32,000 nt of DNA from Candidatus Peribacter riflensis (GCA_001430755.1 CP013062.1:750001-782000), one strand, 5' to 3'; positions 1,382-19,730 are shown, counted from the stretch's first letter. A program made the numbers and translations. Notes: a model not told the origin generated them from the letters alone.

Positions 1382-1390
1382 TGCTACAGT
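1382..1390 (+). promoter_or_regulatory. Extended -10 promoter TGcTACAGT, 8 nt upstream of ATG 1399
   Basis: The sequence is tgctacagt-gcccccgc-ATG. The same TGCTAYAMT-N6-8-ATG layout recurs at hrcA, ruvA, the purP-like gene and the zinc-ribbon gene. Confidence 0.5.
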
Positions 1391-2975: not shown

Positions 2976-3545
2976 ATTTGCCAATCAAGCAAATCAAGGC
3001 CTGCGGCCTCGTCCCTTCCAAGACAAACACACACAGCTCCACCCCGTCCCGCACCTTGCGGGGCGGGGCAGGAGCCCCCCGCCCCTTCACATCACGGAAG
3101 AAACGCAGAGAGAATGGTGGTCACGCACGAGCGCACCGCGCCCCTCCCATTCACCCATCCCCATTGGAACACATGGGCATAGGAGCGCCCTCCCCCGCTC
3201 ACTGTTGACCACTTCGCTTCGTTCCTGGAATCGCTCCGGATCAGAGGCACCGTGACTACCATCCTCTCTGCTGTGCAATGTCGCCCACCGGTCTTCAGGA
3301 ACCGGGTGGACGCGCCCCCCTCCACTCCCCATGGATCCCTCCGCATTTGCGAGGTCTAAAGATCCTGTTCCGGGGACCTCGACTGGTCACGAGGAGAAAC
3401 AAGGACCACAGCACGGCAGAAAGATGAAGGTCTCCTCCCTTCGCTTTTCTCCCTCTTTACGCTCGTGAAGCAGATTCCTTGCCTCCGATAGCGGAAGAGG
3501 GAAACACCCACACAAAAAGGCCGGACTTCGTTCCGGTCTTTTTTT
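2976..3545 (+). ncRNA. Candidate long non-coding transcript, class unknown, bounded by a promoter and a terminator
   Basis: No ORF here has protein-like composition; the tracked 80-107 aa ORFs are P/R/H/S-rich and overlap in several frames. The region is C-rich with poly-C tracts. It contains an 11-bp hairpin at 3042..3068 (ccccgtcccgc/gcggggcgggg) and a further gaggtc/gacctc stem at 3351..3380. It ends at a hairpin plus T7. Confidence 0.3.
3514..3545. terminator. Bidirectional intrinsic terminator (A5-hairpin-T7)
   Basis: The sequence is aaaaa-ggccgga-cttcgt-tccggtc-ttttttt. It sits 12 nt downstream of the stop of the minus-strand ATPase gene and at the end of the + strand ORF-less region. 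Confidence 0.75.
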
Positions 3546-3556
3546 GAACGTCCTCC

Positions 3557-6241
3557 TCATGCAGCATTCTTCTTCCGCTCCTGAAGTTCCTGTAGTGCCT
3601 TGCTCAGGGCGGGCACTCCCCCGCTCGCTTCGAGTTTTTTTGCGAGATCTTTGTAGGTCTTCTCTTCGTCCGCCGTGAAGGCCTCGCCCAGAATCTGCTT
3701 CTTGCGGAGCGCATTGAACTCATTGCTCCACATTTCCCGGTCGCGCCATGCGCGGTACTCTTTAAGGCTCATTCCCTTCTTCTTGGCCTTCTTGATCTCT
3801 TCTTCCTCTTTCTCTTTGGCCTTCTCGCCCACCTTGGCCTGTGTGGCAGCCTCGAAAGAACCGGCCGCCCACTTGGAAATTTTCTCTTCGACCACCGATC
3901 TCTTCTCGGTATAGCGCTCACGCGAGAGCTTGAAGAGAATCTCCATGCGCTTCGCGTCGTGCTCCACGTGCGGGTCCGGGAGTGTAGTGACGGAGAAAGG
4001 CTTACTGGGCACGCCATCGATCATGAGCCGGACATACGCATGATACTTGGGCAAGCTGAGAATATCCTTGGGCATGGCCAGTTCCTCGAACTGCAAACTC
4101 AAATCCTCCGCATCATCCGATCCCACCTGAAAACAGAAGATGGAGCCCACGTTGCCGAAGACCGCATCCTTGAGCGTCGTTTTTCCTTCGCCAACGAGCA
4201 GCTGCGCCACGTACTGGTTGGCCATGGTCAGGTTCAGACGGTACTTGCGCGCTTCAGAGAGGATGGTAGCGAAAGACTCTGTGGCGAAATTCTGGAACTC
4301 ATCCACGTAGAGGTAGAAATCTTTGCGCTCTGCCTCGGGAACGTCGGCACGGCTCATGGCATCGATCTGGAACTTGGTGACGAGCATGGAACCGAGGAAG
4401 GCGGATGTATCTTCGCCCAACTTTCCCTTACTCAGGTTCACAATGACGATCTTGCCCGTATCCATCGCATGGCGGATGTCGAGGCCATTCTTCACCTGCC
4501 CCACGATGTTGCGGATGAGCGGAGTCGAGAGCAGCTGGCCCACCTTGTTCTGGATCGCTGCCGTAGCTTCGGTGCGGTACTTTTCGTTCCATGTGGCGTA
4601 CTCCTGCTCCCAGAAGCTCTTCACCATGGGATCCGTGACGCGCGCGACGACCTTCTTGCGGTACACATCATCGGCAAACATGCGCATGATGCCGAGCATC
4701 GAAGACCCTTGGAATTCCAGCAGCGCGAGGAGTGTGTTGCGTAGAATGTGCTCCATGCGGCCGCTGAACATCCCCGGCCACAACTTGGTGAAGACGCTCA
4801 TGAGGCCCGATGCCACGAGCACGCGGTGATCGGGATTGGGACAATCCAACACGTTGAAGGAAATTGGATAGTCACGATCGGACGGATCGAAAATCACCAC
4901 ATCATTGCTCCGGTGCTTGGGCACGAACTCCAGGATCGCCTCGGCCAAATCGCCGTGCGGATCGATGACACCCACTCCCTTCCCCGCCTGGATGTCGGAG
5001 AAAATCATGTTCTCGAGAAGGGTGGATTTTCCCATGCCCGTTTTTCCCAGGATGTACATGTGCCGGCGTCGATCATCCAGACGGATGCCGAATTTCGAAC
5101 GCTGTCCGCGGTACACCGCTTCTCCGAGCACAGTGAGGACATCTTGGGTCTCCGCAATGCCGGGGAGGGGCAGATTCACCGGCGGCTCGAGTTTTTTGCT
5201 GAGCACCCAATCGATATTCGGCGTCTGCACGAGCAGGGTCGGCATGTGCCAGATCGTCGCCACCTCTTCAACGGAAAGAACGAAGGGGCGCGCGACGAAT
5301 CCGAAAGGAAGCACTGCGCCGCTGCGTTCGGGGAGGCCGGCAAATTCATTGCTGTGCGGCAGCGAGAACTGGCGGAAGCTGCTCACAATCTCGCGGACTT
5401 TGCGCCCGGCTTCTACGGATTTTCCCTTCGGAGCGATCACCCCCACGCGGATATTGCAGGTGAAGAGCAGACGATTGACCTTGTCGACGGCGCCCGAGAC
5501 CGCGTCTTCGCGATCATGCGTGCGTCCGGCGATACGCTCGCCCTCGCGCTCCTCGTCCTCCTGTGAACGCTCCATAAGATCGGTGGAGGCGGCACGGACT
5601 TTCCGCAGGAGCGGCGATGCCCTCCATCCGCCAAGCAGCAGAGAAAGGGGCCAGTAGGCAAGCCTCCGCCATCCGCGTGCGAGGACGATCCTCGTGTAGA
5701 AATTCGCGTAGCGGCGCGAGAGCGCGGGTAACCCTTTCTGTAGCAGGGGCAGGAAACAGAGCGCCCGCGTGCGGAAGCGCCCGCCCAGAGGCTGCAGGAC
5801 AATCTGAATGTGGCCACGCATGCCCGCGAAGGGATAGCGTGCCAGCGCGGAGGTGACGCCGGCAATCGGATCGATGTTCACCCGGGCGAGCATGTCATCG
5901 AATTGCGGGTGGCGTTTGATGGGGAAAATCTCGGGCGCCTGGAGTGCCAGATCGGCCGAAACAACCTCTTCATCCGCAGAGGCGCTGAAAGGATCTTCGG
6001 TGAGCTCTTCGATGTCGATATCCGGAAACTGGGCATAGAGCTGGCTCTCGACAAGCCCCACGGTCTCTTCGTCGGCACGGACGAACAGGGCGATCTTGCG
6101 GTCGCGGCCGAGACCGATTTCCAGCCCTACGCGCGCCTCGCGACCTTTGAGGGAGTGGAGAGCGGCGAGCATCGATTCCACGTAGAGCGGACCCCGTTCA
6201 TTCTCGAGTGCCGGCCGGACCTTGAGGAAAACAGTCGACAT
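3557..6241 (-). CDS. TrwB/TraD/VirD4-like (type IV coupling protein family) P-loop ATPase with an uncharacterised N-terminal region and a K/E-rich C-terminal tail
   Basis: The 894-aa ORF has Walker A in YILGKTGMGKSTLLENMI followed by GVGVIDPHGDL, and a Walker B region FYLYVDEFQNF followed by SEARKYRLNLTMANQYVAQL. This is the pattern of T4CP-type ATPases. The first ~390 aa carry no motif I recognise. The last ~130 aa are Lys/Glu-rich (KAKEKEEEEIKKAKKK). Confidence 0.8.
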   Translation of the reverse strand: MSTVFLKVRPALENERGPLYVESMLAALHSLKGREARVGLEIGLGRDRKIALFVRADEETVGLVESQLYAQFPDIDIEELTEDPFSASADEEVVSADLALQAPEIFPIKRHPQFDDMLARVNIDPIAGVTSALARYPFAGMRGHIQIVLQPLGGRFRTRALCFLPLLQKGLPALSRRYANFYTRIVLARGWRRLAYWPLSLLLGGWRASPLLRKVRAASTDLMERSQEDEEREGERIAGRTHDREDAVSGAVDKVNRLLFTCNIRVGVIAPKGKSVEAGRKVREIVSSFRQFSLPHSNEFAGLPERSGAVLPFGFVARPFVLSVEEVATIWHMPTLLVQTPNIDWVLSKKLEPPVNLPLPGIAETQDVLTVLGEAVYRGQRSKFGIRLDDRRRHMYILGKTGMGKSTLLENMIFSDIQAGKGVGVIDPHGDLAEAILEFVPKHRSNDVVIFDPSDRDYPISFNVLDCPNPDHRVLVASGLMSVFTKLWPGMFSGRMEHILRNTLLALLEFQGSSMLGIMRMFADDVYRKKVVARVTDPMVKSFWEQEYATWNEKYRTEATAAIQNKVGQLLSTPLIRNIVGQVKNGLDIRHAMDTGKIVIVNLSKGKLGEDTSAFLGSMLVTKFQIDAMSRADVPEAERKDFYLYVDEFQNFATESFATILSEARKYRLNLTMANQYVAQLLVGEGKTTLKDAVFGNVGSIFCFQVGSDDAEDLSLQFEELAMPKDILSLPKYHAYVRLMIDGVPSKPFSVTTLPDPHVEHDAKRMEILFKLSRERYTEKRSVVEEKISKWAAGSFEAATQAKVGEKAKEKEEEEIKKAKKKGMSLKEYRAWRDREMWSNEFNALRKKQILGEAFTADEEKTYKDLAKKLEASGGVPALSKALQELQERKKNAA

Positions 6242-6248
6242 AAAAGAT

Positions 6249-6959
6249 TTAGTGTGAGCGGAGCAAATCGGCGATGAGATCGAGGGCGACGGCGTTGTAG
6301 GCGTAGTCCATGCGCATGGGTCCGAGAATCCCGATGATCCCGCCCTCGCCGCGCACCATGTACTTCGTGACCATCAGACTGCAACTCGGAATCTGGGGGA
6401 GGAGGTGTTCGTCACCGATGTAGTAGCGCACCCGCTCATCCACCTCGATGGTGGAAAGCAGCCGGTGCAAATGCTCCTCGAGTACCTCGGCGATGCCGCT
6501 GCCCAGCCGCGGATCCCCCTGAAACTCCGGCTGCTTGAGCACGTTGCTCAGACCCAAATAGTAGACCTGTGGTTTATGCGGCACTTTCGCGAAAGCGACA
6601 TTGGGAATCATATGGGCGAGGAGCGCCACCGCCTCGTACACCCGCTCCTGGTCCTTGCGCTGAAAGTACTGCTCTTTGAGACTCTGAAACCGGCGCCGGA
6701 CGGTGATTTCATGGCGCGTCGGCTCCAGCAGCTCCTGTACGTACATACGGTACCCCTTGGCAGTGGGGATGCGCCCGGCCGACACGTGTGGCTGCTCGAG
6801 GAATCCTTCCTCGGTGAGCCGTGCCATTTCGTTCCGGAGCGTGGCCGAAGAACAGCAGAAATCTCCGCTCTCCAACAGCCGCTTGCTGCCCACCGGAAGC
6901 GCAGATTCGATGAATTGATCGATGATCGCTACCAGGAGCTTGCTCTGTCGCACATCCAT
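6249..6959 (-). CDS. hrcA: Heat-inducible transcription repressor HrcA, short form of 237 aa
   Basis: The N-terminus MDVRQSKLLVAIIDQFIESALPVGSKRLLE...SSATLRNEMARLTEEGFLEQPHVSAGRIPTAKGYRMYV is a typical HrcA winged-helix region. The tracked ORF (to 7124) extends upstream across rpmE. I chose ATG 6959 because it follows the CIRCE element and promoter and gives a canonical N-terminus. Confidence 0.9.
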   Translation of the reverse strand: MDVRQSKLLVAIIDQFIESALPVGSKRLLESGDFCCSSATLRNEMARLTEEGFLEQPHVSAGRIPTAKGYRMYVQELLEPTRHEITVRRRFQSLKEQYFQRKDQERVYEAVALLAHMIPNVAFAKVPHKPQVYYLGLSNVLKQPEFQGDPRLGSGIAEVLEEHLHRLLSTIEVDERVRYYIGDEHLLPQIPSCSLMVTKYMVRGEGGIIGILGPMRMDYAYNAVALDLIADLLRSH

Positions 6960-6965
6960 GCTGAA

Positions 6966-6974
6966 AGTATAGCA
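6966..6974 (-). promoter_or_regulatory. Extended -10 promoter TGcTATACT, 6 nt upstream of the hrcA ATG and overlapping the CIRCE arm
   Basis: The minus strand reads gagTGCTATACTttcagcATG. The TGCTA of the CIRCE right arm doubles as the TGn plus start of the -10. Confidence 0.5.
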
Positions 6975-6995
6975 CTCGCTATGGAGGAGTGCTAC
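6969..6995. promoter_or_regulatory. CIRCE operator (HrcA binding site)
   Basis: The sequence aTAGCACTC-gctatggag-GAGTGCTAc matches the established consensus TTAGCACTC-N9-GAGTGCTAA at 8 of 9 positions per arm with an exact 9-nt spacer. It lies between the rpmE stop (7003) and the hrcA start (6959). Confidence 0.85.
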
Positions 6996-7002
6996 CAGTC
7001 TC

Positions 7003-7227
7003 TCATTTGTCCCCTTTGGTCTTTCCGGCCGCCATGCGCTTGCGGAAGCGCTCAATGCGGCCGCCGCGCGCCTCGCCCTGCTTCTTGCCCGTGTAGACCG
7101 GGTGGCACATTCTGCAGATTTCAACTGTCACCTCTTTCGTGGTGGACGGGATCATAAACACCGCGCCGCAAGCCGTGCAAGTGGCCTTGGCGTCCTGAAA
7201 CATCTGCGGGTGAATGGCCTTCTTCAT
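7003..7227 (-). CDS. rpmE: 50S ribosomal protein L31 (Zn-ribbon type)
   Basis: The sequence is MKKAIHPQMFQDAKATCTACGAVFMIPSTTKEVTVEICRMCHPVYTGKKQ, with the canonical L31 N-terminus and CxxC...CxxC. Confidence 0.95.
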   Translation of the reverse strand: MKKAIHPQMFQDAKATCTACGAVFMIPSTTKEVTVEICRMCHPVYTGKKQGEARGGRIERFRKRMAAGKTKGDK

Positions 7228-7328
7228 AACGCGGGGAGTCTACAGAAGAGCCCGGTGAGAGCAAGAAAAAAGGGCTCCTGATTGCCAGGGGCACCATCTG
7301 GCCATAGGGGATGAAAGTAAACCCCTCC

Positions 7329-10004
7329 TCATTTTTCGCTCTGCGCCGCTTTCGCCGCACGCTTCACCCGTCTCTCCTCCTTCTCGATCGCTTCCACCTC
7401 TTCGGTACGCTGCTCCTCGGCAGCCTCGAGCACCGCCTCCTCCGCCTCCTTGTCGTACATCACCACGCTCACCGTCGCGACTTTGTCCTTCCCGTTTAAG
7501 CGCATGATGATCACACCCTGCGTGGCGCGTCCGAGCGATGGGATATCCGAGAGCTGCATGCGAATGGCCTGCCCCTGCTTGCTGAGACACAACAGATCCC
7601 CTTCCGCACCCTCCTCGAGCACGCACCCGCCCACGATATCGCCTGTCTTGGCCGTGAGCTGCGCGGCCTTCACCCCCGTTCCTCCGCGACCCTGGAAGCG
7701 GTACTGCTCCACCGGGGTCATCTTGCCGAGTCCGTTCTCCATCACTACGAGGAGCTTTGATTTCTTCGGATCCAGAATCGCCGCAGCCTCCACCACCTTG
7801 TCACCGGTACTGAGCTTGATGCCACGCACGCCGGCCGCCGCACGGCCCATGGGACGCACGTCATCCTCTTTGAAGCGGATGGCCTTGCCCTTCTGCGTGA
7901 GCAGGATGATCTCGTTCTTGCCGTCGGTCTCGACCACCCATCGCAATTCATCACCCGCAGGCATCTTCTGCGCGATCAGGCCGGAACGCCGGATGTTCTC
8001 GAATTCTGTGAGCTCCGTGCGCTTCACGGTGCCGCCGCGTGTGACCATGAAGAGGAACTTCTTGCCCTGCATGTCGGCACGCAGGATCGCCGTCACGCGC
8101 TCCTCCGGCTGCAACTGAAGCAGGTTCACGATCGCCTGCCCCTTGGCCACTCTGCTCCCCTGCGGGAGCTCGTACGTCGGCAGCTTGAACACGCGTCCCG
8201 TGTTCGTGAAGAAGAGCAGATCGTCGTGGTTCATCACATGGAGGAGCGAGAGCACCTCGTCTTCCTCCTTGGTCGTCATGCCCTTCACGCCCTTGCCTCC
8301 GCGCTGCTGGGCACGGAACTGCATGGGGCTGAGCCTCTTCACGTAGCCCGTCTGTGTGAGCGTAACGATCATCGGCGCATTCGGAATCGTGTCTTTGGCC
8401 GAGAACTCGCCCACGTCATGCTTCACGATCGTCGTGCGGCGCGGGTCACCATAGGTCTCTTTGATCTCGACGAGTTCTGTCTTGATGATTTTGTCGATCT
8501 TCTTGGGATCCTTGAGAATCGCCTCGCATTCGGCGATGAACTTTCTCTTCTCGGCGAGCTCTTCTTCGATCTTCTTCCTTTCCAATCCCGCCAGCGTCTG
8601 AAGGCGCATCTGCAGAATGGCGTCGGCCTGGATCTCGGAGAGCTTGAATTTCTTCACCAGATTCTCTTTGGCGATCTCCTTGGTTTCGCTCTTCTTGATG
8701 AGCGCGATGACCTTGTCGATGTCGTTCAGGGCCAGACTCAACCCTTCGAGGATGTGTGCACGATCCCTGGCCCGGTCACGGTCGAACGTCACGCGCCGTC
8801 GCACCACCTCGCGGCGATGCGCGAGGAAGAGCGTGAGCGCCTCTTCCAAATTGAGCAGCCGCGGCTGCAATCCCCCATCGAGGGCGATCATGTTGTAGCC
8901 GAAGCTCGTCTGCAGATCGGTGTGCTTGAAGAGCTGATTCAGAACCTTCTGGGGATAACTGTCTTTCTTGAGCTCCACGATGATGCGGATGCCCGTACGG
9001 TCCGATTCGTCGCGGATATCGGAGATGCCGTCGATGGCTTTGTCCTGCACCAGATGTGCCATCTTCTCGATCATCGTGGACTTGTTCACCTGGTAGGGAA
9101 TTTCGGAGACGCGGATGACGTAGCGCCCCTTTATTTCTTCAATCTGGGCCTTGGCGCGCACGATGATGGAGCCGCGCCCCGTCAGGTACGCCTGCTTGAT
9201 CGCCTCGCGGTTGTAGACAATGCCGCCCGTCGGAAAATCGGGACCCTGCACGAACTCCAGAAGTTCCTCCACCGTGGCATCCGGATGATCCATCAGGTGC
9301 AGCGTGGCATCGATGATCTCGCCCATGTTGTGGGGCGGGATATTCGTGGCCATGCCCACAGCGATGCCCACGGTACCGTTGAGAAGCAGATGCGGAATCT
9401 TGGCAGGCATGACCCTGGGCTCCTTGCGCGTGGAATCGTAGTTGCCCATGAACTCCACGGTCTGCTTGTCGATATCCTGCAGGAGCTCGTCGGCGATCTT
9501 GGCCATCTTCGCCTCGGTGTAGCGCATGGCTGCGGCACCGTCACCGTCGATCGAGCCGAAGTTCCCCTGCCCGTGGATGATGGGATACCGCATCGAGAAA
9601 TCCTGCGCCATGCGCACGAGCGCCTCGTACACGGCGCTGTCGCCGTGCGGGTGGTACTTACCAAGAACATCTCCGACGACGAGTGCGCACTTGCGGAACT
9701 TGGCCGTCGACTTGAGCCCAAGTTCGTTCATCGCATAGAGAATACGGCGGTGCACCGGCTTCAAGCCGTCCCGCACATCAGGAAGCGCGCGTGAGACAAT
9801 GACACTCATCGCGTAATCGAGGTAGCTCGTCTCCATTTCCTGCACGATGGGACGCGGAACGATCTTTCCGATATTGGAAAGACTGGTCTGTACAGGAAGC
9901 CCGTTCGCCGGAGCGGCCGAAGGTGTTTCGGGTGTCGGTTGTTCGCCCTTGTCCTTCTTCTCATTCTTCTCGGGCTCTGCGGGTTTGTCGGATTTCTTAG
10001 GCAT
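7329..10004 (-). CDS. gyrA: DNA gyrase subunit A
   Basis: The motifs [33 protein letters not shown]...[37 protein letters not shown] are followed by C-terminal beta-pinwheel repeats. The protein also has a Lys/Pro-rich ~50-aa N-terminal extension and an acidic tail. Confidence 0.97.
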
Positions 10005-11416: not shown

Positions 11417-11422
11417 AATGCT

Positions 11423-11451
11423 AAAATAGCTCTTTTTTATGTTTTTGTCAA
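11423..11451 (-). promoter_or_regulatory. Sigma70-like promoter TTGACA-N17-TATTTT, 6 nt upstream of ATG 11416
   Basis: The minus strand reads ttgaca aaaacataaaaaagagc tatttt agcatt ATG. Confidence 0.55.
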
Positions 11452-14033: not shown

Positions 14034-14148
14034 TTTCCCTCTTATTATAGCGGAAAAACTCACGTAATGAAATGGACTGTAACCGATCAGTCATCTCGAG
14101 AATATTCATAAAACCATGCCACATATTCGCAGACACAGTAGAAAAACC

Positions 14149-14315: not shown

Positions 14316-14324
14316 TGCTACACT
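14316..14324 (+). promoter_or_regulatory. Extended -10 promoter TGcTACACT, 8 nt upstream of the ruvA ATG
   Basis: The sequence is tgctacact-tcacccct-ATG. Confidence 0.5.
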
Positions 14325-14332
14325 TCACCCCT

Positions 14333-14911
14333 ATGATTGCCCACCTCCGCGGCATCATCGCACGGACAACTCCCGGAGAAGTGACCGTGGACGTGGATGG
14401 CGTGGGCTACCGCGTGATGGTTCCGCTCGATGTGTGGGAACAGGTGGAGGAAGGCACGATCGCGAAGCTCTGGATTTCCACATTCATCCGGGAAGACCGC
14501 TTCGACCTCTTCGGGTTCCTCTCAACACAGAGCCGCACGCTGTTTGAGGAATTCCTCTCCATCCCGGGCATCGGGCCCAAGACGGCACTGGAAATCTGCA
14601 GCGTGCCGCGCGGGCTCCTGAGCATGGCTATCCGCGAGCAGGATGCAGCGCCACTCACAGGGATCAAGGGCATCGGCAAGAAGACTGCCGAAAAACTGCT
14701 CTTGGAATTGAAATCACTCGCCGAAAAGCTCCCCGAGCTCTTCGCAGGATCAGAACAAGGCCCCGCCCGCTCTGTCGTAGACCCCGATGCCGTCTCTGCA
14801 CTTGAGGCTCTGGGGTACGACGCCCCGACGATCATGCATGCCCTGAAGTCCCTGCCCCCGGATCTCGCGACGACTGAGGACCGCGTGTCTGCGGCACTCC
14901 GTTCCCTTTAG
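14333..14911 (+). CDS. ruvA: Holliday junction branch-migration complex subunit RuvA
   Basis: The sequence is MIAHLRGIIARTTPGEVTVDVDGVGYRVMVP...RFDLFGF...LFEEFLSIPGIGPKTALEI...GIKGIGKKTAEKLLLEL, with the HhH motifs present. Confidence 0.92.
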   Translation: MIAHLRGIIARTTPGEVTVDVDGVGYRVMVPLDVWEQVEEGTIAKLWISTFIREDRFDLFGFLSTQSRTLFEEFLSIPGIGPKTALEICSVPRGLLSMAIREQDAAPLTGIKGIGKKTAEKLLLELKSLAEKLPELFAGSEQGPARSVVDPDAVSALEALGYDAPTIMHALKSLPPDLATTEDRVSAALRSL

Positions 14912-14916
14912 ATCCT

Positions 14917-16203
14917 ATGCTCGACCTCTCCGTCTCACAGGCACTCGCAAAGGCCATCACGCCCTCGTTCGGCGTGCCGGATCAGGAGCTCAGCGCTCTG
15001 CGAACCGGCCTGCGGCGCTACGTGCAGGAATGGCTGAAGGAACGCGAGAAGGGACAGCACACGTGGTCCATGTCTCCCTACGACAAAGACGCGGTGGAAG
15101 CCGTAAAAGAAGTTGCTATCCGTACCAAAGCGGAACGGATCCGCACCGTCGTGTGGATCGGCATCGGCGGATCGGGGCTGGGACCCAAAGTGATTCAGGA
15201 GGCGTTTGAAACTCCCGAGACGGTGGAGTTCATCCTGCTCGATTCCATCGATCCTTCCTTCGTAGAAACAGTGCTGAAGATCGTGGACTGGCGCTACACG
15301 CTACTCGTGGTCGCGAGCAAATCCGGCGGGACCCTGGAGCCCATGAGCCTCTTCTTCACCTGCTACGAAAAGATGAAGGCTGCACGCGGCGCGCAGGCCG
15401 CGCACTACACCATCGCCCTCACCGATCCATTCGGCGGGCCGTTGAGGAGCTTCTGCCTGGAAGAGGATATTCGTATGCTCACGATTCCCTCAGAGATCGG
15501 CGGGCGCTTCTCCATCTTCACTCCTGTGGGACTATTGCCGCTCGCGCTGCTCGACGGCAACATCGACAGCTTCGTGCGCGGGGCGAAAGAGATGGATACG
15601 CTCTGCCAGAACACTGCGCTGGACGAAAACCCCGCCACTCTCCTCGCTGCCGTGCAGTACCTACTCGACTTCAAGCGCGGCTACAGCGTGCGCGTGATCA
15701 TGCCCTACAGCGCACGCCTCACCTCCATCGCACGCTGGGATCAGCAACTCATCGCCGAGAGTCTGGGGAAAACCGAGACGAAGAATCCCATTCCTTTGGC
15801 TGCCATCGGCACGCAGGATCAGCACTCCCTGCTGCAACAGTGGATGGCCGGCCCGCGTCTGCCATGGCATCTGTTCATCCGCGAGGAGGAAAAACCGCGA
15901 GTCCATCTGCCGGAGCACCTGCCCGAACCCTTCGCGCACCTGCAGGGCAAGACCTTCGGCCAGTTGCTCGACGCGTGTTACACAGGGACCGCCGCAGCCC
16001 TCACATCGGTCAAGCGTCCCTCGGTAACGATCACGCTCCCACGCCTGGATGAGCGGCACTTGGGGCAACTCTTCTTCCTCCTGCTCGCCGAAGTCATCTT
16101 TTTGGGTAAGCTCTACCGCATCGATCCCTACGGCCAGCCTGCCGTGGAGATCGGCAAAAAGATTACGAAAGACATTCTGTCGAAGGGAAGAACTGAGGAA
16201 TAA
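14917..16203 (+). CDS. pgi: Glucose-6-phosphate isomerase
   Basis: The matching motifs are VVWIGIGGSGLGPKV, LLVVASKSGGTLEPMSLF, GGRFSIFTPVGLLPLAL and GTQDQHSLLQQWMAGP. Confidence 0.9.
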   Translation: MLDLSVSQALAKAITPSFGVPDQELSALRTGLRRYVQEWLKEREKGQHTWSMSPYDKDAVEAVKEVAIRTKAERIRTVVWIGIGGSGLGPKVIQEAFETPETVEFILLDSIDPSFVETVLKIVDWRYTLLVVASKSGGTLEPMSLFFTCYEKMKAARGAQAAHYTIALTDPFGGPLRSFCLEEDIRMLTIPSEIGGRFSIFTPVGLLPLALLDGNIDSFVRGAKEMDTLCQNTALDENPATLLAAVQYLLDFKRGYSVRVIMPYSARLTSIARWDQQLIAESLGKTETKNPIPLAAIGTQDQHSLLQQWMAGPRLPWHLFIREEEKPRVHLPEHLPEPFAHLQGKTFGQLLDACYTGTAAALTSVKRPSVTITLPRLDERHLGQLFFLLLAEVIFLGKLYRIDPYGQPAVEIGKKITKDILSKGRTEE

Positions 16204-17389: not shown

Positions 17390-18538
17390 TCACGTCACCA
17401 CCTGCTCCACTGCCTGTTCAGTGACGGCCTTCCGGATCTCCATCCCCACCCGCTCCCCCACACTCATGGCCTCACCGTAGAGGTAGCGACTGTACGGAGT
17501 CGCAAACGTTCCCGGTGAGCCGGGAATGCGGAGCGAAACGTCGAAGATCACGATATCCTCTTTGCCGTCTTCGGCAGTCACCGCTCCCTGCAGCGCGAAA
17601 GGCCCGATGATGCCCTTGCCACTTGGATCCAGGGTTTTTGGAAGCTTCTGAGTGGCTGTCACAAATTTCTCACCGAGATCGAAAGCTTTTTCGAGGATGG
17701 ATTCTTTCACGGTGCACGCGATGTGGCCGGTCTCGATCATTTTTAAGGGAATGCCGGACGCAAGCGCCTTCGTCTGCTCCGGAGCAGTCATGCGCAGGAA
17801 GCCATCGAGGTTCGTCTGGCGCCGCGTGTCGGTACCAAGCAGCTCCAACTCTTTCGTGAGCGGCGACCAGAAGAAGTTAAAGTTCACCGGTGCGCCGACG
17901 ATGAACTCTTCGATGGGCGCCTGCCGCCACTTTGCCGATACCTTTCCCTCTTGTTCTAAGCGGGACCCTTCGGCCTCCCACGAAGACTGGTTTCCGACAA
18001 CGAAGAACGCCCGTTCGTAGCCGCGCTGGGCCTCGGCCGCCTTCACCAGCACCGGCCGGTCGATGTCTTCGGGCTTCGCAAAGATTTTCGGCGTGCGGAT
18101 GCCAGCATCATGGAGCAGATGATACTGGTTGTAGGGCTGGTCGCGTTCCTCGAGCTTCACGAACGTGCGCGAGCCGAAGATGGGGATTTGAAAATCATTC
18201 TCGATCGCAGCGTAATCAGAGAAATACACCCAGAAGTATCGATTATGTACAAAGATTGTGTTCATACTTCTCAGCTTCTCCTGCACGTCTTTCCTAAGAA
18301 CGTCCTCAAACTTATCCACAAGGATCACCTCATCAATGCACCCTTTCGTCCCTCGTCCTTTTCCCTTAGTCCTAAAATACCGGTCATACGTCTTCTCTCG
18401 TCCCTTGCGCGCGACGCACACCGTTTTGAATCCGTGCTTCTTCGCCCCGTGGCAGACATCGAGCGCGCTGTGGCCTCCGAGCACACCGATGGTGATGTTC
18501 TTTGTGTCGTAGCCTTTGAGGAGATCAGGAACGTTCAT
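17390..18538 (-). CDS. Divergent PurP-like ATP-grasp protein (paralog of FAICAR synthetase)
   Basis: The sequence ITIGVLGGHSALDVCHGAKKHGFKTVCVARKG...PEDIDRPVLVKA...FFWSPLTKELELLGTDTRRQTN...GPFALQG aligns by eye with the neighbouring PurP along its whole length but is clearly more divergent. Confidence 0.75.
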   Translation of the reverse strand: MNVPDLLKGYDTKNITIGVLGGHSALDVCHGAKKHGFKTVCVARKGREKTYDRYFRTKGKGRGTKGCIDEVILVDKFEDVLRKDVQEKLRSMNTIFVHNRYFWVYFSDYAAIENDFQIPIFGSRTFVKLEERDQPYNQYHLLHDAGIRTPKIFAKPEDIDRPVLVKAAEAQRGYERAFFVVGNQSSWEAEGSRLEQEGKVSAKWRQAPIEEFIVGAPVNFNFFWSPLTKELELLGTDTRRQTNLDGFLRMTAPEQTKALASGIPLKMIETGHIACTVKESILEKAFDLGEKFVTATQKLPKTLDPSGKGIIGPFALQGAVTAEDGKEDIVIFDVSLRIPGSPGTFATPYSRYLYGEAMSVGERVGMEIRKAVTEQAVEQVVT

Positions 18539-18546
18539 TGAAGAGA

Positions 18547-18555
18547 AGTGTAGCA
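18547..18555 (-). promoter_or_regulatory. Extended -10 promoter TGcTACACT, 8 nt upstream of ATG 18538
   Basis: The minus strand reads ctcTGCTACACTtctcttcaATG, and the 9-mer is identical to the one at ruvA. Confidence 0.5.
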
Positions 18556-18674: not shown

Positions 18675-19730
18675 TCACCCCAACACTTCATCCAGTCTCC
18701 CCTGCTCGATCGCCTGCTTGATATCGCGTGCGATGCGGCGCCCGGTGCTCATCGGCTCTTTGTAGCGCAGTTGCGTGTAGGGCGATCCCTCGACGAAGGG
18801 ATTCGTGCCGGCCACGATGCGTGCCGAAATCTCGAAGACGAAGACCTGGAGCTTGCGCGTGACGATGCATTCCAGACAGAAGGGACCGAAGAGCCCCTTG
18901 CCGGCGCCGAGCGTGCGGCTCTGTTCCACCACCCGCTCGCCCATCGCAAAGAACTGCGGCAGCATCGACTCGCGGACGACGACGGGAATGTTGCCGACAA
19001 TCGTGTAGCTCGTGTGGATGTTCGCGGACAATTGGTCCTCGGCACGGATGCGGCCGATGGAGTCGGCATTCGATTCGTACCGCTTGTCGAAGCTCATGAT
19101 CTCCAATTCCTTCGTGAGTGGGGAGTAGAAGTAGTGCACGTAGAGCGGAACGCCGACGATGTACTCCTGAAGCGCATATTCGTTCTGTTCCGGGTATTTG
19201 CGGTTTTTGACTTCGTAGAATTGCTCGGCTGATTTGGCAATGAAGTAGCCGAAGCCGCCCGAGGCGCCGTGGAACTTCACGATGGCCGGGCGGTCAATAT
19301 CTTCGGGCTTCGCAAAGAGGTGCGGCAGCTCCAGACCGGATTTCTCGAGCCATTTCCGCTCTAAGCTCCGGTCGCTCTCCCACTTCAGAATCTCTTTCGT
19401 GCCGTAGTACATGGCCTGCATCTTCATGACGCGATCGGTGCCGAGGTAGGCGATGAAAGACCCATGTGGAATGACGACGGCGTTCCGGCGAATCAACTCC
19501 TCTTCGAGTTTGTCATTCCACTCCGACCAATCTTTCACTGTGATGATTTCATCCGCCACGCCGTAGCTGATGTACGGACGCTCTGTTCCCTTCTTGCAGA
19601 TCACCAGATTGCGCATGCCTTCGTCGCGCGCCCCTTTCAGAATCTGCAGAGCCGAATGACTCCCCATGGTGGCGATGCAGTAGTCGCTGCTCTTGGTGGA
19701 TGCCAGAAGGATGGGCTTCGGTTTTGCCAT
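18675..19730 (-). CDS. purP: Archaeal-type 5-formaminoimidazole-4-carboxamide ribonucleotide (FAICAR) synthetase PurP
   Basis: The sequence is IATMGSHSALQILKGARDEG...VIPHGSFIAY...PEDIDRPAIVKFHGASGGFGYFIA...HYFYSPLTKELEIMSFDKRYESN...GNIPVVVRESMLPQ...GPFCLE...FEISARIVAGTN. It matches the PurP family as I remember it from methanogens. Confidence 0.85.
   Translation of the reverse strand: MAKPKPILLASTKSSDYCIATMGSHSALQILKGARDEGMRNLVICKKGTERPYISYGVADEIITVKDWSEWNDKLEEELIRRNAVVIPHGSFIAYLGTDRVMKMQAMYYGTKEILKWESDRSLERKWLEKSGLELPHLFAKPEDIDRPAIVKFHGASGGFGYFIAKSAEQFYEVKNRKYPEQNEYALQEYIVGVPLYVHYFYSPLTKELEIMSFDKRYESNADSIGRIRAEDQLSANIHTSYTIVGNIPVVVRESMLPQFFAMGERVVEQSRTLGAGKGLFGPFCLECIVTRKLQVFVFEISARIVAGTNPFVEGSPYTQLRYKEPMSTGRRIARDIKQAIEQGRLDEVLG

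What the first reader, a model, noticed from the sequence alone, without database searches (positions are those of the whole stretch)
3557..6995. CIRCE operator controlling a short hrcA that is tightly coupled to a T4CP-like ATPase instead of chaperone genes
A near-perfect CIRCE (TAGCACTC-N9-GAGTGCTA) sits 9 nt upstream of hrcA and overlaps its predicted TGCTATACT -10 box, so HrcA binding should occlude the promoter. In the classical arrangement hrcA heads grpE-dnaK-dnaJ. Here the next gene begins only 7 nt after the hrcA stop (TAAatcttttATG) and is an 894-aa TrwB/TraD/VirD4-like ATPase, followed by a terminator. This implies that a coupling-protein-type ATPase is part of the HrcA/heat-shock regulon. 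The HrcA is also only 237 aa, against roughly 340 aa for typical HrcA proteins, which suggests loss of part of the C-terminal domains.
Basis: partly seen in the sequence, partly recalled or inferred. Interest (0 to 1): 0.65.

Follow-up and report, generated by a model that had tools for sequence, protein, structure and literature searches.

The report
Self-regulated hrcA fused to orphan ATPase
In this ultra-small groundwater bacterium (Peribacteria) the heat-shock repressor gene hrcA carries its own operator on top of its promoter and is followed, 7 bases later, by a conjugation-type ATPase of unknown role; the pairing is real but looks like a family-specific accident of gene order, not a new heat-shock function.

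Summary
A perfect CIRCE (6970-6994) shares GCTA with a -10 box, GCTATACT. That motif marks leaderless gene starts across the window (7 of 8 copies lie 6-11 nt before a long ORF's ATG). hrcA (6959-6249, 236 aa) is followed after 7 nt by an 894-aa TrwB-fold P-loop ATPase (6241-3557) and a hairpin plus T-run.

- **Short HrcA:** it lacks one internal ~100-aa block, not the C-terminus. This form is normal in Patescibacteria. In four other lineages it still heads hrcA-grpE-hsp20-dnaK-dnaJ.
- **ATPase:** it belongs to a huge pan-Patescibacteria family (22,769 representative clusters). Elsewhere that family usually sits after secA-secDF and a Sigma70_r4/HARE-HTH gene. It is often split in two genes and usually has an N-terminal hydrophobic segment, which is missing here.
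- **Synteny:** hrcA-ATPase adjacency occurs in 13 of 13 Peribacteria loci but in none of about 75 other loci.
- **Junction:** eight loci have gaps of 8 nt or less. Five have 44-120 nt spacers with hairpins, three of them with a clear -10-like box, and no second CIRCE.

Co-transcription is likely here, but selected heat-shock control of the ATPase is unsupported. Interest is low to moderate.

The parts
7003..7227 (-). rpmE (ribosomal protein L31), the upstream neighbour. Its stop codon lies 8 nt before CIRCE and no terminator was found in between.
   Evidence: Pfam Ribosomal_L31 3.9e-23 and NCBIfam PRK00019 above cut-off. The terminator scan shows none between 7003 and 6959.
6970..6994 (.). CIRCE operator, TAGCACTC-N9-GAGTGCTA, a perfect 8+8 inverted repeat.
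   Evidence: 0 mismatches, the only site in 32 kb, 0.09 expected by chance. A CIRCE-like site is kept at the same place in every related hrcA locus, with conserved arms and a variable spacer.
6966..6973 (-). Predicted extended -10 element GCTATACT of a leaderless promoter. It shares GCTA with the right arm of CIRCE. The ATG follows after 6 nt.
   Evidence: 7 of the 8 GCTAnAnT motifs in the window lie 6-11 nt upstream of the ATG of a long ORF. No Shine-Dalgarno sequence is seen upstream of any gene. The same geometry is found in relatives. Peribacter riflensis is listed as SD-scarce (PMC10783764). The transcription start itself is inferred.
6249..6959 (-). hrcA, short form (236 aa): an N-terminal winged helix plus a GAF-like domain, without the internal ~100-aa inserted domain.
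   Evidence: Pfam HrcA 4.7e-20 and TIGR00331 3e-51. 1stz is the best sequence hit (2.3e-18) and the best fold hit (E 1e-8). The alignment with full-length Paenibacillus and Listeria HrcA shows a single internal gap at their residues ~130-230.
6242..6248 (-). 7-nt hrcA-ATPase junction (ATCTTTT). It has no Shine-Dalgarno sequence, no terminator and no GCTAnAnT box. Translation of the ATPase is probably coupled by termination-reinitiation.
   Evidence: A degenerate CACACT lies 9 nt upstream of the ATG, inside the end of hrcA, and cannot be excluded as a weak promoter.
5162..6241 (-). ATPase residues 1-360: the DUF8128 domain (PF26449), without an N-terminal membrane segment.
   Evidence: PF26449 appears in the precomputed Pfam hits for this gene and its homologues. 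It is 27% identical to a separate 436-aa DUF8128 protein in L016. The Kyte-Doolittle 19-residue maximum is 1.35. Relatives in other Patescibacteria mostly do carry an N-terminal hydrophobic segment.
3557..5161 (-). ATPase residues 361-894: a TrwB/HerA-like P-loop domain with an all-alpha insert and a charged helical C-terminal tail. Walker A GKTGMGKS is at 5024-5047 and Walker B YLYVDE at 4298-4315.
   Evidence: Pfam DUF87 8.5e-12 and TrwB_AAD_bind 6.7e-7. Foldseek matches TrwB at E 6e-12, and also Cag-beta, DotL, HerA and VirB4. It is 57% identical over 430 aa to a separate ATPase gene in L016.
3512..3545 (-). Hairpin (CCGGA-N6-TCCGG, flanked by an A-run and a T-run) 20 nt after the ATPase stop. 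It is the likely intrinsic terminator of the unit.
   Evidence: Terminator scan. The fold is -15.3 kcal/mol with z -1.2, which is modest.

Best explanation
This is the chromosomal, self-repressed hrcA gene of a Peribacteria (Patescibacteria/CPR) bacterium.

**How the unit works**
- The promoter is of the leaderless type usual in this genome: an extended -10 box, GCTAnAnT, with the ATG 6-11 nt downstream and no Shine-Dalgarno sequence.
- The CIRCE operator shares its last four bases with that -10 box, so bound HrcA should block RNA polymerase.
- HrcA here is the short form typical of Patescibacteria: a winged helix plus a GAF-like domain, without the ~100-aa inserted domain.
- The next cistron starts 7 nt after the hrcA stop. 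It encodes a soluble fusion of a DUF8128 domain with a TrwB/HerA-fold P-loop ATPase.
- This ATPase belongs to a very large family found across Patescibacteria (the 'orphan T4CP homologues'), of unknown function.
- In this genome it is most likely co-transcribed with hrcA and translated by termination-reinitiation. The transcript probably ends at the hairpin at 3536-3512.

**Why the two genes are neighbours**
- The juxtaposition is a derived gene order of the Peribacteraceae. hrcA has lost its grpE-dnaK partners there, and the ATPase has lost its usual upstream partners and its N-terminal hydrophobic segment.
- This happened in a compact genome that packs unrelated genes together.
- HrcA control of the ATPase is therefore probably real in this strain, but it is a by-product and not a conserved, selected regulon membership.

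**Shown versus inferred**
- Shown: sequence features, homology, fold, synteny and junction variation.
- Inferred: the transcription start, co-transcription, translational coupling and repression.
For: - **CIRCE:** perfect and unique in the window.
- **Conservation of CIRCE:** one CIRCE-like site per Peribacteria locus, always at hrcA, in about 190 kb.
- **Promoter motif:** statistics, absence of Shine-Dalgarno sequences, SD-scarce Peribacter in PMC10783764.
- **Junction in the window:** no terminator-like site and no promoter motif.
- **Synteny:** 13 of 13 Peribacteria loci have hrcA directly upstream of the ATPase, even where genes were inserted between rpmE and hrcA. Eight of these have gaps of -1 to 8 nt.
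- **Absence elsewhere:** hrcA is not adjacent to the ATPase in about 75 other Patescibacteria loci. The usual context there is secA-secD-secF-[Sigma70_r4/HARE-HTH]-[DUF8128]-[ATPase].
- **Short HrcA elsewhere:** it heads grpE-hsp20-dnaK-dnaJ in four other lineages.
- **Missing domain:** internal deletion mapped.
- **ATPase fold:** TrwB-like.
- **Literature:** 5,713 VirD4-like homologues in 2,918 Patescibacteria genomes, only 148 of them near virB4 (PMC12102498).
- **Control for tight packing:** ruvA and pgi are 5 nt apart.
Against: - No transcript data exist for this organism, so co-transcription and the leaderless start are inferred.
- hrcA-ATPase is the one junction never broken in 13 loci, while the flanks vary. 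This could reflect selection for the pair.
- Read-through from rpmE is possible, because no terminator lies between rpmE and CIRCE. That would complicate the simple promoter-occlusion picture.
- The terminator hairpin after the ATPase is no more stable than many shuffled sequences (z -1.2).
- The locations of grpE, dnaK and groESL in Peribacteria, and whether they carry CIRCE, could not be determined.
Confidence: 0.6

Rival explanations
1. The T4CP-like ATPase is a genuine, selected member of the HrcA heat-shock regulon in Peribacteria. In this view hrcA and the ATPase form a functional unit, and the ATPase acts in a stress response, for example handling damaged macromolecules or stress-induced DNA or protein transfer.
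For: - The adjacency is unbroken in 13 of 13 Peribacteria loci, while genes were inserted upstream of hrcA and the downstream genes vary.
- Eight of 13 junctions are 8 nt or shorter, including a TAATG overlap.
- There is no promoter motif or terminator in the window's junction.
- The Peribacteria ATPase is a derived form, fused and lacking the N-terminal hydrophobic segment, which could go with a new role.
Against: - Five of 13 relatives carry hairpins, three of them with a clear -10-like box, between the genes, and none has a CIRCE of its own in front of the ATPase.
- The pairing is absent from all other Patescibacteria examined.
- Heat-shock genes are not enriched near the ATPase elsewhere. 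clpB appears in 3, hrcA in 2 and dnaK in 1 of about 75 loci, close to the 1-2 that I estimate for any single-copy gene in about 20 kb of a roughly 1-Mb genome.
- Unrelated genes are equally tightly packed here (ruvA-pgi).
- Nothing in the protein itself points to proteostasis.
Confidence: 0.2
2. hrcA is monocistronic here as well. The ATPase would be transcribed from a weak promoter buried in the last codons of hrcA (CACACT, 9 nt before the ATG), as a leaderless mRNA like most genes of this genome. HrcA would then regulate only itself at this locus.
For: - Leaderless starts 6-11 nt after a -10 box are the rule in this genome.
- Relatives with longer spacers show a -10-like box at the same distance before the ATPase ATG: TATAAT+7 in L002, TACACT+6 in L005, TGTATGCT+11 in L213.
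- CACACT keeps the A at position 2 and the T at position 6.
- An internal cistron without a Shine-Dalgarno sequence otherwise needs reinitiation.
Against: - CACACT does not match the GCTAnAnT motif, and no such motif lies in the 3' end of hrcA.
- Other tight-junction relatives (L006, L012, L198, L212) show no -10-like hexamer at all.
- No terminator would stop hrcA transcripts from running on into the ATPase gene, so some co-transcription would remain.
Confidence: 0.15
3. The ATPase is the coupling protein of a conjugative or integrative element that happened to insert next to hrcA.
For: TrwB is the best structural match, and the Pfam families T4SS-DNA_transf and TraG-D_C give weak hits.
Against: - The context is housekeeping genes (gyrA, rpmE, ruvA, pgi).
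- No relaxase or VirB4 was recognised among the ORFs of the window that were scanned.
- The same locus is kept in 13 genomes.
- The family is 57% identical across Patescibacteria classes and has a conserved chromosomal context.
- All NCBIfam T4CP models score far below their cut-offs, for example 46.9 against 366.
- The protein has no membrane segment.
Confidence: 0.03

Closest known systems
HrcA/CIRCE class I heat-shock repression (Bacillus subtilis hrcA-grpE-dnaK-dnaJ and groESL; Thermotoga maritima HrcA structure 1STZ)
   Same: - The operator has the same consensus: a 9-nt inverted repeat with a 9-nt spacer.
- The repressor has the same family signature: the N-terminal winged helix is about 40% identical to Paenibacillus HrcA, and the C-terminal GPxRMxY motif is kept.
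- hrcA is the first gene of its unit and carries its own operator.
   Different: - The operator is fused to the -10 box of a leaderless promoter. In B. subtilis, as I recall it, CIRCE lies between the promoter and the start codon.
- The repressor lacks the ~100-aa inserted domain. From my memory of the 1STZ paper, that domain forms the dimer interface.
- The downstream gene is not a chaperone.
Short HrcA of other Patescibacteria (L027, L214, L215, P0394)
   Same: The proteins have the same domain-deleted architecture (220-245 aa). CIRCE lies directly upstream in the three loci for which DNA was held (L027, L214, L215).
   Different: Those genes still head grpE-hsp20-dnaK-dnaJ. Only the Peribacteria version is followed by the ATPase.
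Type IV coupling proteins (TrwB of R388, VirD4, TraD, Cag-beta, DotL)
   Same: The fold is the same: a P-loop domain with an all-alpha insert (Foldseek E 6e-12, TM 0.62-0.66 on TrwB). Walker A and Walker B motifs are present.
   Different: - There is no N-terminal transmembrane domain.
- There is an extra 360-aa DUF8128 domain.
- No T4SS, relaxase or mobile-element context is present.
- Sequence scores are far below the curated family cut-offs.
Orphan VirD4-like 'T4CP homologues' of Patescibacteria (PMC12102498)
   Same: This is very probably the same protein family. It is abundant in Patescibacteria, encoded away from virB4, and of unknown function. The paper suggests it may have been exapted.
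   Different: - The paper does not describe the DUF8128 partner or fusion, the secA-secDF-HARE-HTH neighbourhood, or the hrcA linkage in Peribacteria.
- I did not verify family identity against the paper's protein list.
HerA/FtsK-type hexameric translocases (DUF87)
   Same: DUF87 is the best Pfam hit (46 bits, above cut-off). HerA is among the structural matches.
   Different: There is no NurA-like or other known partner gene. TrwB matches better by fold.

Membership tests
CIRCE operator | A 9-nt inverted repeat, TTAGCACTC-N9-GAGTGCTAA, with a 9-nt spacer. | tested here: met
   16 of 18 consensus positions match and the 8+8 inverted repeat is perfect. It is the only site in 32 kb, against 0.09 expected.
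CIRCE operator | Located at the promoter or 5' end of a heat-shock gene or of hrcA, and conserved at orthologous loci. | tested here: met
   It overlaps the -10 box of hrcA. A CIRCE-like site is present at the same position in all 13 Peribacteria loci and in 4 other Patescibacteria hrcA loci, with conserved arms and a variable spacer.
CIRCE operator | Bound by HrcA. | not testable with these tools
   This needs a gel-shift or footprint experiment with the short HrcA.
HrcA repressor | An N-terminal winged-helix DNA-binding domain with the HrcA signature. | tested here: met
   TIGR00331 positions 2-127 match residues 3-128. Residues 3-117 align to 1stz residues 17-130 at E 1e-17. Conserved columns are shown.
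HrcA repressor | A GAF-like C-terminal domain (Pfam PF01628) that includes the C-terminal GPxRMxY motif. | tested here: met
   PF01628 scores 72.9 bits against a cut-off of 22.2. The motif GPMRMDY is retained. The model matches 1stz, IclR-type and GAF folds (the model itself is only moderate, pLDDT 70).
HrcA repressor | An inserted (dimerising) domain of about 100 aa between the first and later elements of the GAF-like domain. | tested here: not met
   There is a single internal gap opposite residues ~130-230 of Paenibacillus and Listeria HrcA. The TIGR00331 score of 175 falls below its cut-off of 197.2. The function assigned to this domain is from my memory of the 1STZ paper and was not checked here.
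HrcA repressor | Activity modulated by GroEL or by temperature. | not testable with these tools
   This is a biochemical property.
Classical hrcA-grpE-dnaK-dnaJ operon | grpE, dnaK and dnaJ lie downstream of hrcA. | tested here: not met
   The downstream gene is the ATPase in all 13 Peribacteria loci. No Hsp70, GrpE or DnaJ family was found in the long ORFs of the window that were scanned. The feature is met in the other Patescibacteria loci.
Type IV coupling protein (VirD4/TraD/TrwB) | A P-loop nucleotide-binding domain with Walker A and B motifs and a TrwB-like fold including an all-alpha domain. | tested here: met
   GKTGMGKS at residue 399 and YLYVDE at residue 643. TrwB_AAD_bind scores 29 bits against a cut-off of 20.5. 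Foldseek matches TrwB at E 6e-12 with TM 0.62-0.66.
Type IV coupling protein (VirD4/TraD/TrwB) | An N-terminal transmembrane anchor. | tested here: not met
   The maximum 19-residue Kyte-Doolittle mean is 1.35, and the reading frame is closed by the hrcA stop 7 nt upstream. Most relatives in other Patescibacteria do have an N-terminal hydrophobic segment.
Type IV coupling protein (VirD4/TraD/TrwB) | Encoded with a T4SS (VirB4 and others) and/or a relaxase, or on a mobile element. | tested here: not met
   No such gene was recognised among the ORFs scanned in the 32-kb window or among the annotated neighbours in related loci. The literature reports only 148 of 5,713 Patescibacteria homologues near virB4.
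Type IV coupling protein (VirD4/TraD/TrwB) | Reaches the curated score of an NCBIfam T4CP model. | tested here: not met
   The best hit is TIGR03743 at 46.9 bits against a cut-off of 366.
Pan-Patescibacteria DUF8128 plus TrwB-like ATPase family | A DUF8128 domain followed by, or encoded next to, the conserved ATPase. | tested here: met
   PF26449 is recorded for this gene. Homology to the separate DUF8128 and ATPase genes of L016 is 27% and 57%. There are 22,769 representative clusters at E up to 1e-3.
Pan-Patescibacteria DUF8128 plus TrwB-like ATPase family | The usual neighbourhood: secA-secDF and a Sigma70_r4/HARE-HTH gene immediately upstream. | tested here: not met
   In Peribacteria, hrcA occupies the upstream position. 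The HARE-HTH gene is upstream in 41 other loci.

The most novel reading that the evidence does not exclude
In Peribacteraceae a soluble, fused derivative of the ATPase has been recruited under HrcA/CIRCE control. In other Patescibacteria this T4CP-like ATPase mostly carries an N-terminal hydrophobic segment. If the recruitment is real, it would be the first non-chaperone, translocase-type member of a class I heat-shock regulon. It would also give a regulatory handle on the function of a protein family of more than 20,000 clusters with no known role, for example stress-linked handling of DNA or protein substrates. Separately, the Patescibacteria HrcA without its inserted domain would have to dimerise and sense stress in a way that differs from the T. 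maritima paradigm.
Probability: 0.15. Interest if true: 0.6.

Novelty: new variant of a known kind. Interest (0 to 1): 0.3.

Why it matters
- **Direct value.** The locus gives a clean, testable example of operator-promoter fusion in a genome that uses leaderless mRNAs and almost no Shine-Dalgarno sequences.
- **HrcA biology.** Patescibacteria carry a minimal HrcA that lacks the ~100-aa inserted domain yet keeps CIRCE and, in most lineages, the dnaK operon. That is useful for understanding how HrcA dimerises and senses stress.
- **The ATPase family.** The work adds context for the abundant 'orphan T4CP' family of Patescibacteria. It has a DUF8128 partner that is either split or fused. It sits next to secA-secDF and a HARE-HTH gene. 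In Peribacteria it has lost the N-terminal hydrophobic segment.
- **What it does not show.** There is no evidence of a new heat-shock function, so the biological impact is modest unless expression data show real co-regulation.

Tried and rejected
- **Metagenome scan for more CIRCE targets.** I scanned metagenome contigs for CIRCE fused to a -10 box and an ATG, hoping to find other CIRCE-controlled Peribacteria genes such as groES, dnaK or clpB. The 120 hits were dominated by ordinary CIRCE sites of other phyla: full-length hrcA, groEL, dnaJ, clpP-like and rpoH-like genes. Only two were Peribacteria, and both were hrcA. The Peribacteria CIRCE regulon therefore remains undefined.
- **Chaperone genes in Peribacteria loci.** None of the fetched loci contained dnaK, groEL or clpB.
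- **Heat-shock genes clustering with the ATPase across Patescibacteria.** L027 has hrcA-grpE-hsp20-dnaK-dnaJ just upstream, L035 has a divergent clpB with a CIRCE-like site between, and L010 and L081 have clpB within 10 kb. The counts (3 clpB, 2 hrcA, 1 dnaK in about 75 loci) are near my rough chance estimate of 1-2, so I rejected this as evidence.
- **Ancestral deletion scenario.** The Peribacteria order could have arisen by deletion from an L027-like arrangement. This rests on a single locus and stays speculation.
- **Conjugative-element origin.** Rejected; see the rival explanations.
- **Local Pfam library.** The local scan did not report PF26449, so I took it from the precomputed annotations.
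- **Literature.** No paper in the held library mentions DUF8128, or HrcA together with Peregrinibacteria; a looser search pairing HrcA with Patescibacteria, Saccharibacteria or CPR listed none among its top results. No text describing the HrcA inserted domain was found, so that point rests on my memory of the 1STZ paper.
- **Sigma-70 promoter scan.** The generic -35/-10 scan found nothing in 3200-7400. The genome-specific GCTAnAnT motif was more informative.

Full report
**What is in the sequence.** All features of the finding lie on the minus strand.
- The only CIRCE in the 32-kb window is TAGCACTC-N9-GAGTGCTA at 6970-6994. It is a perfect inverted repeat, and no other site has up to 3 mismatches, against 0.09 expected by chance.
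- The hrcA ATG is at 6959, 10 nt after the 25-nt core.
- hrcA (6959-6249) encodes 236 aa. It matches Pfam HrcA above its cut-off. It matches TIGR00331 at 3e-51, but with 175 bits it falls below that model's cut-off of 197.
- Seven nucleotides after its TAA starts an 894-aa ORF (6241-3557). This ORF has DUF87/HerA and TrwB_AAD_bind matches above the Pfam cut-offs.
- A hairpin with a T-run follows at 3536-3512.
- Upstream lie rpmE and gyrA. The rest of the window is housekeeping: ruvA, pgi, two purP-like genes, an M23 peptidase and others.
- Homologue names place the window in Candidatus Peribacteria/Peregrinibacteria. An identical hrcA lies on contig DNSX01000008.1 of GCA_003500185.1.

**The promoter.**
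- The motif GCTAnAnT occurs eight times in the window. Seven copies lie 6-11 nt upstream of the ATG of an ORF of at least 190 aa. These ORFs are hrcA, ruvA, a purP-like gene, the TP-methylase gene, the M23 peptidase gene, the mscS-like gene and a 558-aa zinc-finger protein gene.
- No gene start in the window has a Shine-Dalgarno sequence.
- A published survey lists Candidatus Peribacter riflensis among SD-scarce organisms that lack the CCUCC anti-SD (PMC10783764).
- The likely picture is therefore leaderless mRNAs made from extended -10 promoters.
- At hrcA the right arm of CIRCE and the -10 box share GCTA, so bound HrcA should occlude the promoter.
- The same geometry (CIRCE arm, a TAnnnT hexamer, 6-7 nt, ATG) recurs in most related Peribacteria loci; L211 has 12 nt.
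- The transcription start itself is inferred.

**The short HrcA.**
- I aligned it with full-length HrcA proteins fetched from annotated records: Paenibacillus (342 aa) and Listeria (345 aa). The Peribacteria protein lacks one internal block of about 100 residues, corresponding to their residues ~130-230.
- The winged-helix N-terminus is kept (about 40% identity to Paenibacillus), and so is the C-terminus with GPMRMDY.
- The AlphaFold2 model is moderate (pLDDT 70). Its best PDB match is T. maritima HrcA 1stz (E 1e-8), followed by IclR-type regulators, which combine a winged helix with a GAF-like domain.
- From my memory of the 1STZ paper, the missing block corresponds to the 'inserted dimerizing domain'. 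I could not find text to check this.
- The short form is not a local truncation. More than 100 Peribacteria clusters are 233-240 aa long, and a divergent set of 220-245-aa HrcAs exists in other Patescibacteria.
- In four such lineages the short hrcA heads grpE-hsp20-dnaK-(...)-dnaJ, and CIRCE precedes it in the three for which DNA was held.
- The short HrcA is therefore the ordinary heat-shock repressor of this radiation.

**The ATPase.**
- The model is confident (pLDDT 87.6). Its best structural matches are the coupling protein TrwB (E 6e-12, TM about 0.62-0.66 on the target), then Cag-beta, DotL, HerA and VirB4.
- Walker A (GKTGMGKS, residue 399) and Walker B (YLYVDE, residue 643) are intact, and there is no transmembrane segment.
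- All curated NCBIfam T4CP models score far below their cut-offs.
- The N-terminal 360 residues are DUF8128 (PF26449, from the precomputed annotations).
- The family is enormous. There are 22,769 representative clusters at E up to 1e-3 and 6,289 at up to 1e-30.
- A scan of species-representative genomes found it throughout Patescibacteria.
- Neighbour clustering of 80 loci shows a recurrent context: secA-secD-secF, then a Sigma70_r4/HARE-HTH gene (41 loci), then a DUF8128 gene of about 450 aa, then an ATPase gene of about 550 aa that ends in a treble-clef zinc finger in the one example scanned (L016).
- In many lineages the window's single protein is thus two genes. Its halves are 27% and 57% identical to the separate proteins of L016.
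- Most relatives start with a hydrophobic segment: 29 of 37 separate DUF8128 proteins and 15 of 29 fused proteins. All hrcA-linked Peribacteria proteins lack it.
- A recent paper counted 5,713 VirD4-like T4CP homologues in 2,918 Patescibacteria genomes, only 148 of them near virB4. It noted that the homologue is non-essential in Southlakia epibionticum and may have been exapted (PMC12102498). This is very probably the same family.

**Is the hrcA-ATPase link meaningful?**

Evidence in favour:
- hrcA is directly upstream of the ATPase in 13 of 13 distinct Peribacteria loci, with ATPase identity of 60-90%.
- This holds even where one or two genes were inserted between rpmE and hrcA and where the downstream genes differ.
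- Eight junctions are tight: -1, 1, 4, 5, 6, 7, 7 and 8 nt.
- In the window there is no terminator-like site and no GCTAnAnT box between the genes.

Evidence against:
- None of about 75 loci from other Patescibacteria has hrcA next to the ATPase.
- Five Peribacteria loci have spacers of 44-120 nt. Each spacer folds into a stable hairpin, two of them with U-rich tails. Three spacers then show a clear -10-like box at the leaderless distance from the ATPase ATG: TATAAT+7 nt in L002, TACACT+6 in L005 and TGTATGCT+11 in L213.
- None of these loci has a second CIRCE. There is exactly one CIRCE-like site per locus, always at hrcA, in about 190 kb.
- gyrA-rpmE is syntenic as well, so part of the conservation is simply inherited gene order.
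- ruvA and pgi, two unrelated genes, are only 5 nt apart in this same window.

My reading is that the two genes are probably co-transcribed in this strain. The ATPase is then probably translated by reinitiation after the hrcA stop, and so sits under HrcA control. This looks like a by-product of a family-specific rearrangement and not a conserved regulon membership.

**Limits.**
- I could not locate groESL, dnaK or clpB in Peribacteria, so I could not test whether they carry CIRCE. The one metagenome scan I spent on this was swamped by CIRCE sites from other phyla.
- Read-through from rpmE cannot be excluded, because no terminator lies between rpmE and CIRCE.
- There are no expression data.

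**Verdict.**
- The locus is a new variant of a known system: HrcA/CIRCE autoregulation with a minimal HrcA, an operator-promoter fusion on a leaderless gene, and an unusual second cistron.
- Interest is low to moderate (0.3).
- The most novel reading not excluded is genuine stress control of an orphan T4CP-like ATPase. I give it about 15%.

Noticed in passing
window, e.g. 1383-1390(+), 11420-11427(+), 14317-14324(+), 29437-29444(+), 18547-18554(-), 14044-14051(-), 6966-6973(-): The motif GCTAnAnT lies 6-11 nt upstream of the ATG of long ORFs in 7 of its 8 occurrences, and no gene start has a Shine-Dalgarno sequence. This suggests genome-wide leaderless transcription from extended -10 promoters in this Peribacteria genome.
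   Followed up: partly
L016 3434-12571; also L017, L027, L051 and about 40 other loci: A conserved Patescibacteria gene string: secA-secD-secF, a Sigma70_r4/HARE-HTH protein, a DUF8128 protein that usually starts with a hydrophobic segment, and a TrwB-like ATPase that carries a C-terminal treble-clef zinc finger in L016. DUF8128 and the ATPase are separate genes in many lineages. They are fused in Peribacteria, Saccharibacteria and Gracilibacteria.
   Followed up: partly
L035 7081-7107; L010 21858-21884: CIRCE-like sites (2 and 3 mismatches) lie directly upstream of clpB in a Falkowbacteria MAG and a Gracilibacteria MAG. In L035 the site sits in the divergent region between clpB and the HARE-HTH/DUF8128/ATPase genes.
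   Followed up: partly
window 17390-18538(-) and 18675-19730(-): Two tandem genes carry DUF1246 plus DUF1297. As I recall, this is the archaeal-type PurP-like ATP-grasp family, which would be unusual in a bacterium.
   Followed up: no
window 29452-31128(+): A 558-aa protein has no Pfam match except a C-terminal treble-clef zinc finger (PF23477). The same finger ends the split ATPase of another Patescibacteria genome (L016). It has a leaderless-type GCTATACT promoter.
   Followed up: no
L126 1555-, L129 7483-, L091, L106, L163, L178 (metagenome contigs, 56-71% G+C): CIRCE lies immediately upstream of ORFs of about 290 aa that carry the RpoH box (QRKLFFNLR). In these unidentified high-GC bacteria the sigma-32 gene therefore sits behind a CIRCE site. 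I recognised the box from memory and did not run a family search.
   Followed up: partly
window 14333-14911(+) and 14917-16203(+): ruvA and pgi, two functionally unrelated genes, are separated by only 5 nt with no Shine-Dalgarno sequence. I used this pair as an internal control for how little tight spacing means in this genome.
   Followed up: yes
L027 3061-12850: One Patescibacteria MAG, labelled Gammaproteobacteria in the record, has CIRCE-hrcA-grpE-hsp20-dnaK-dnaJ immediately followed by the HARE-HTH, DUF8128 and ATPase genes. Deleting the middle genes would give the Peribacteria order. This is a single locus, so it is only a hint.
   Followed up: partly
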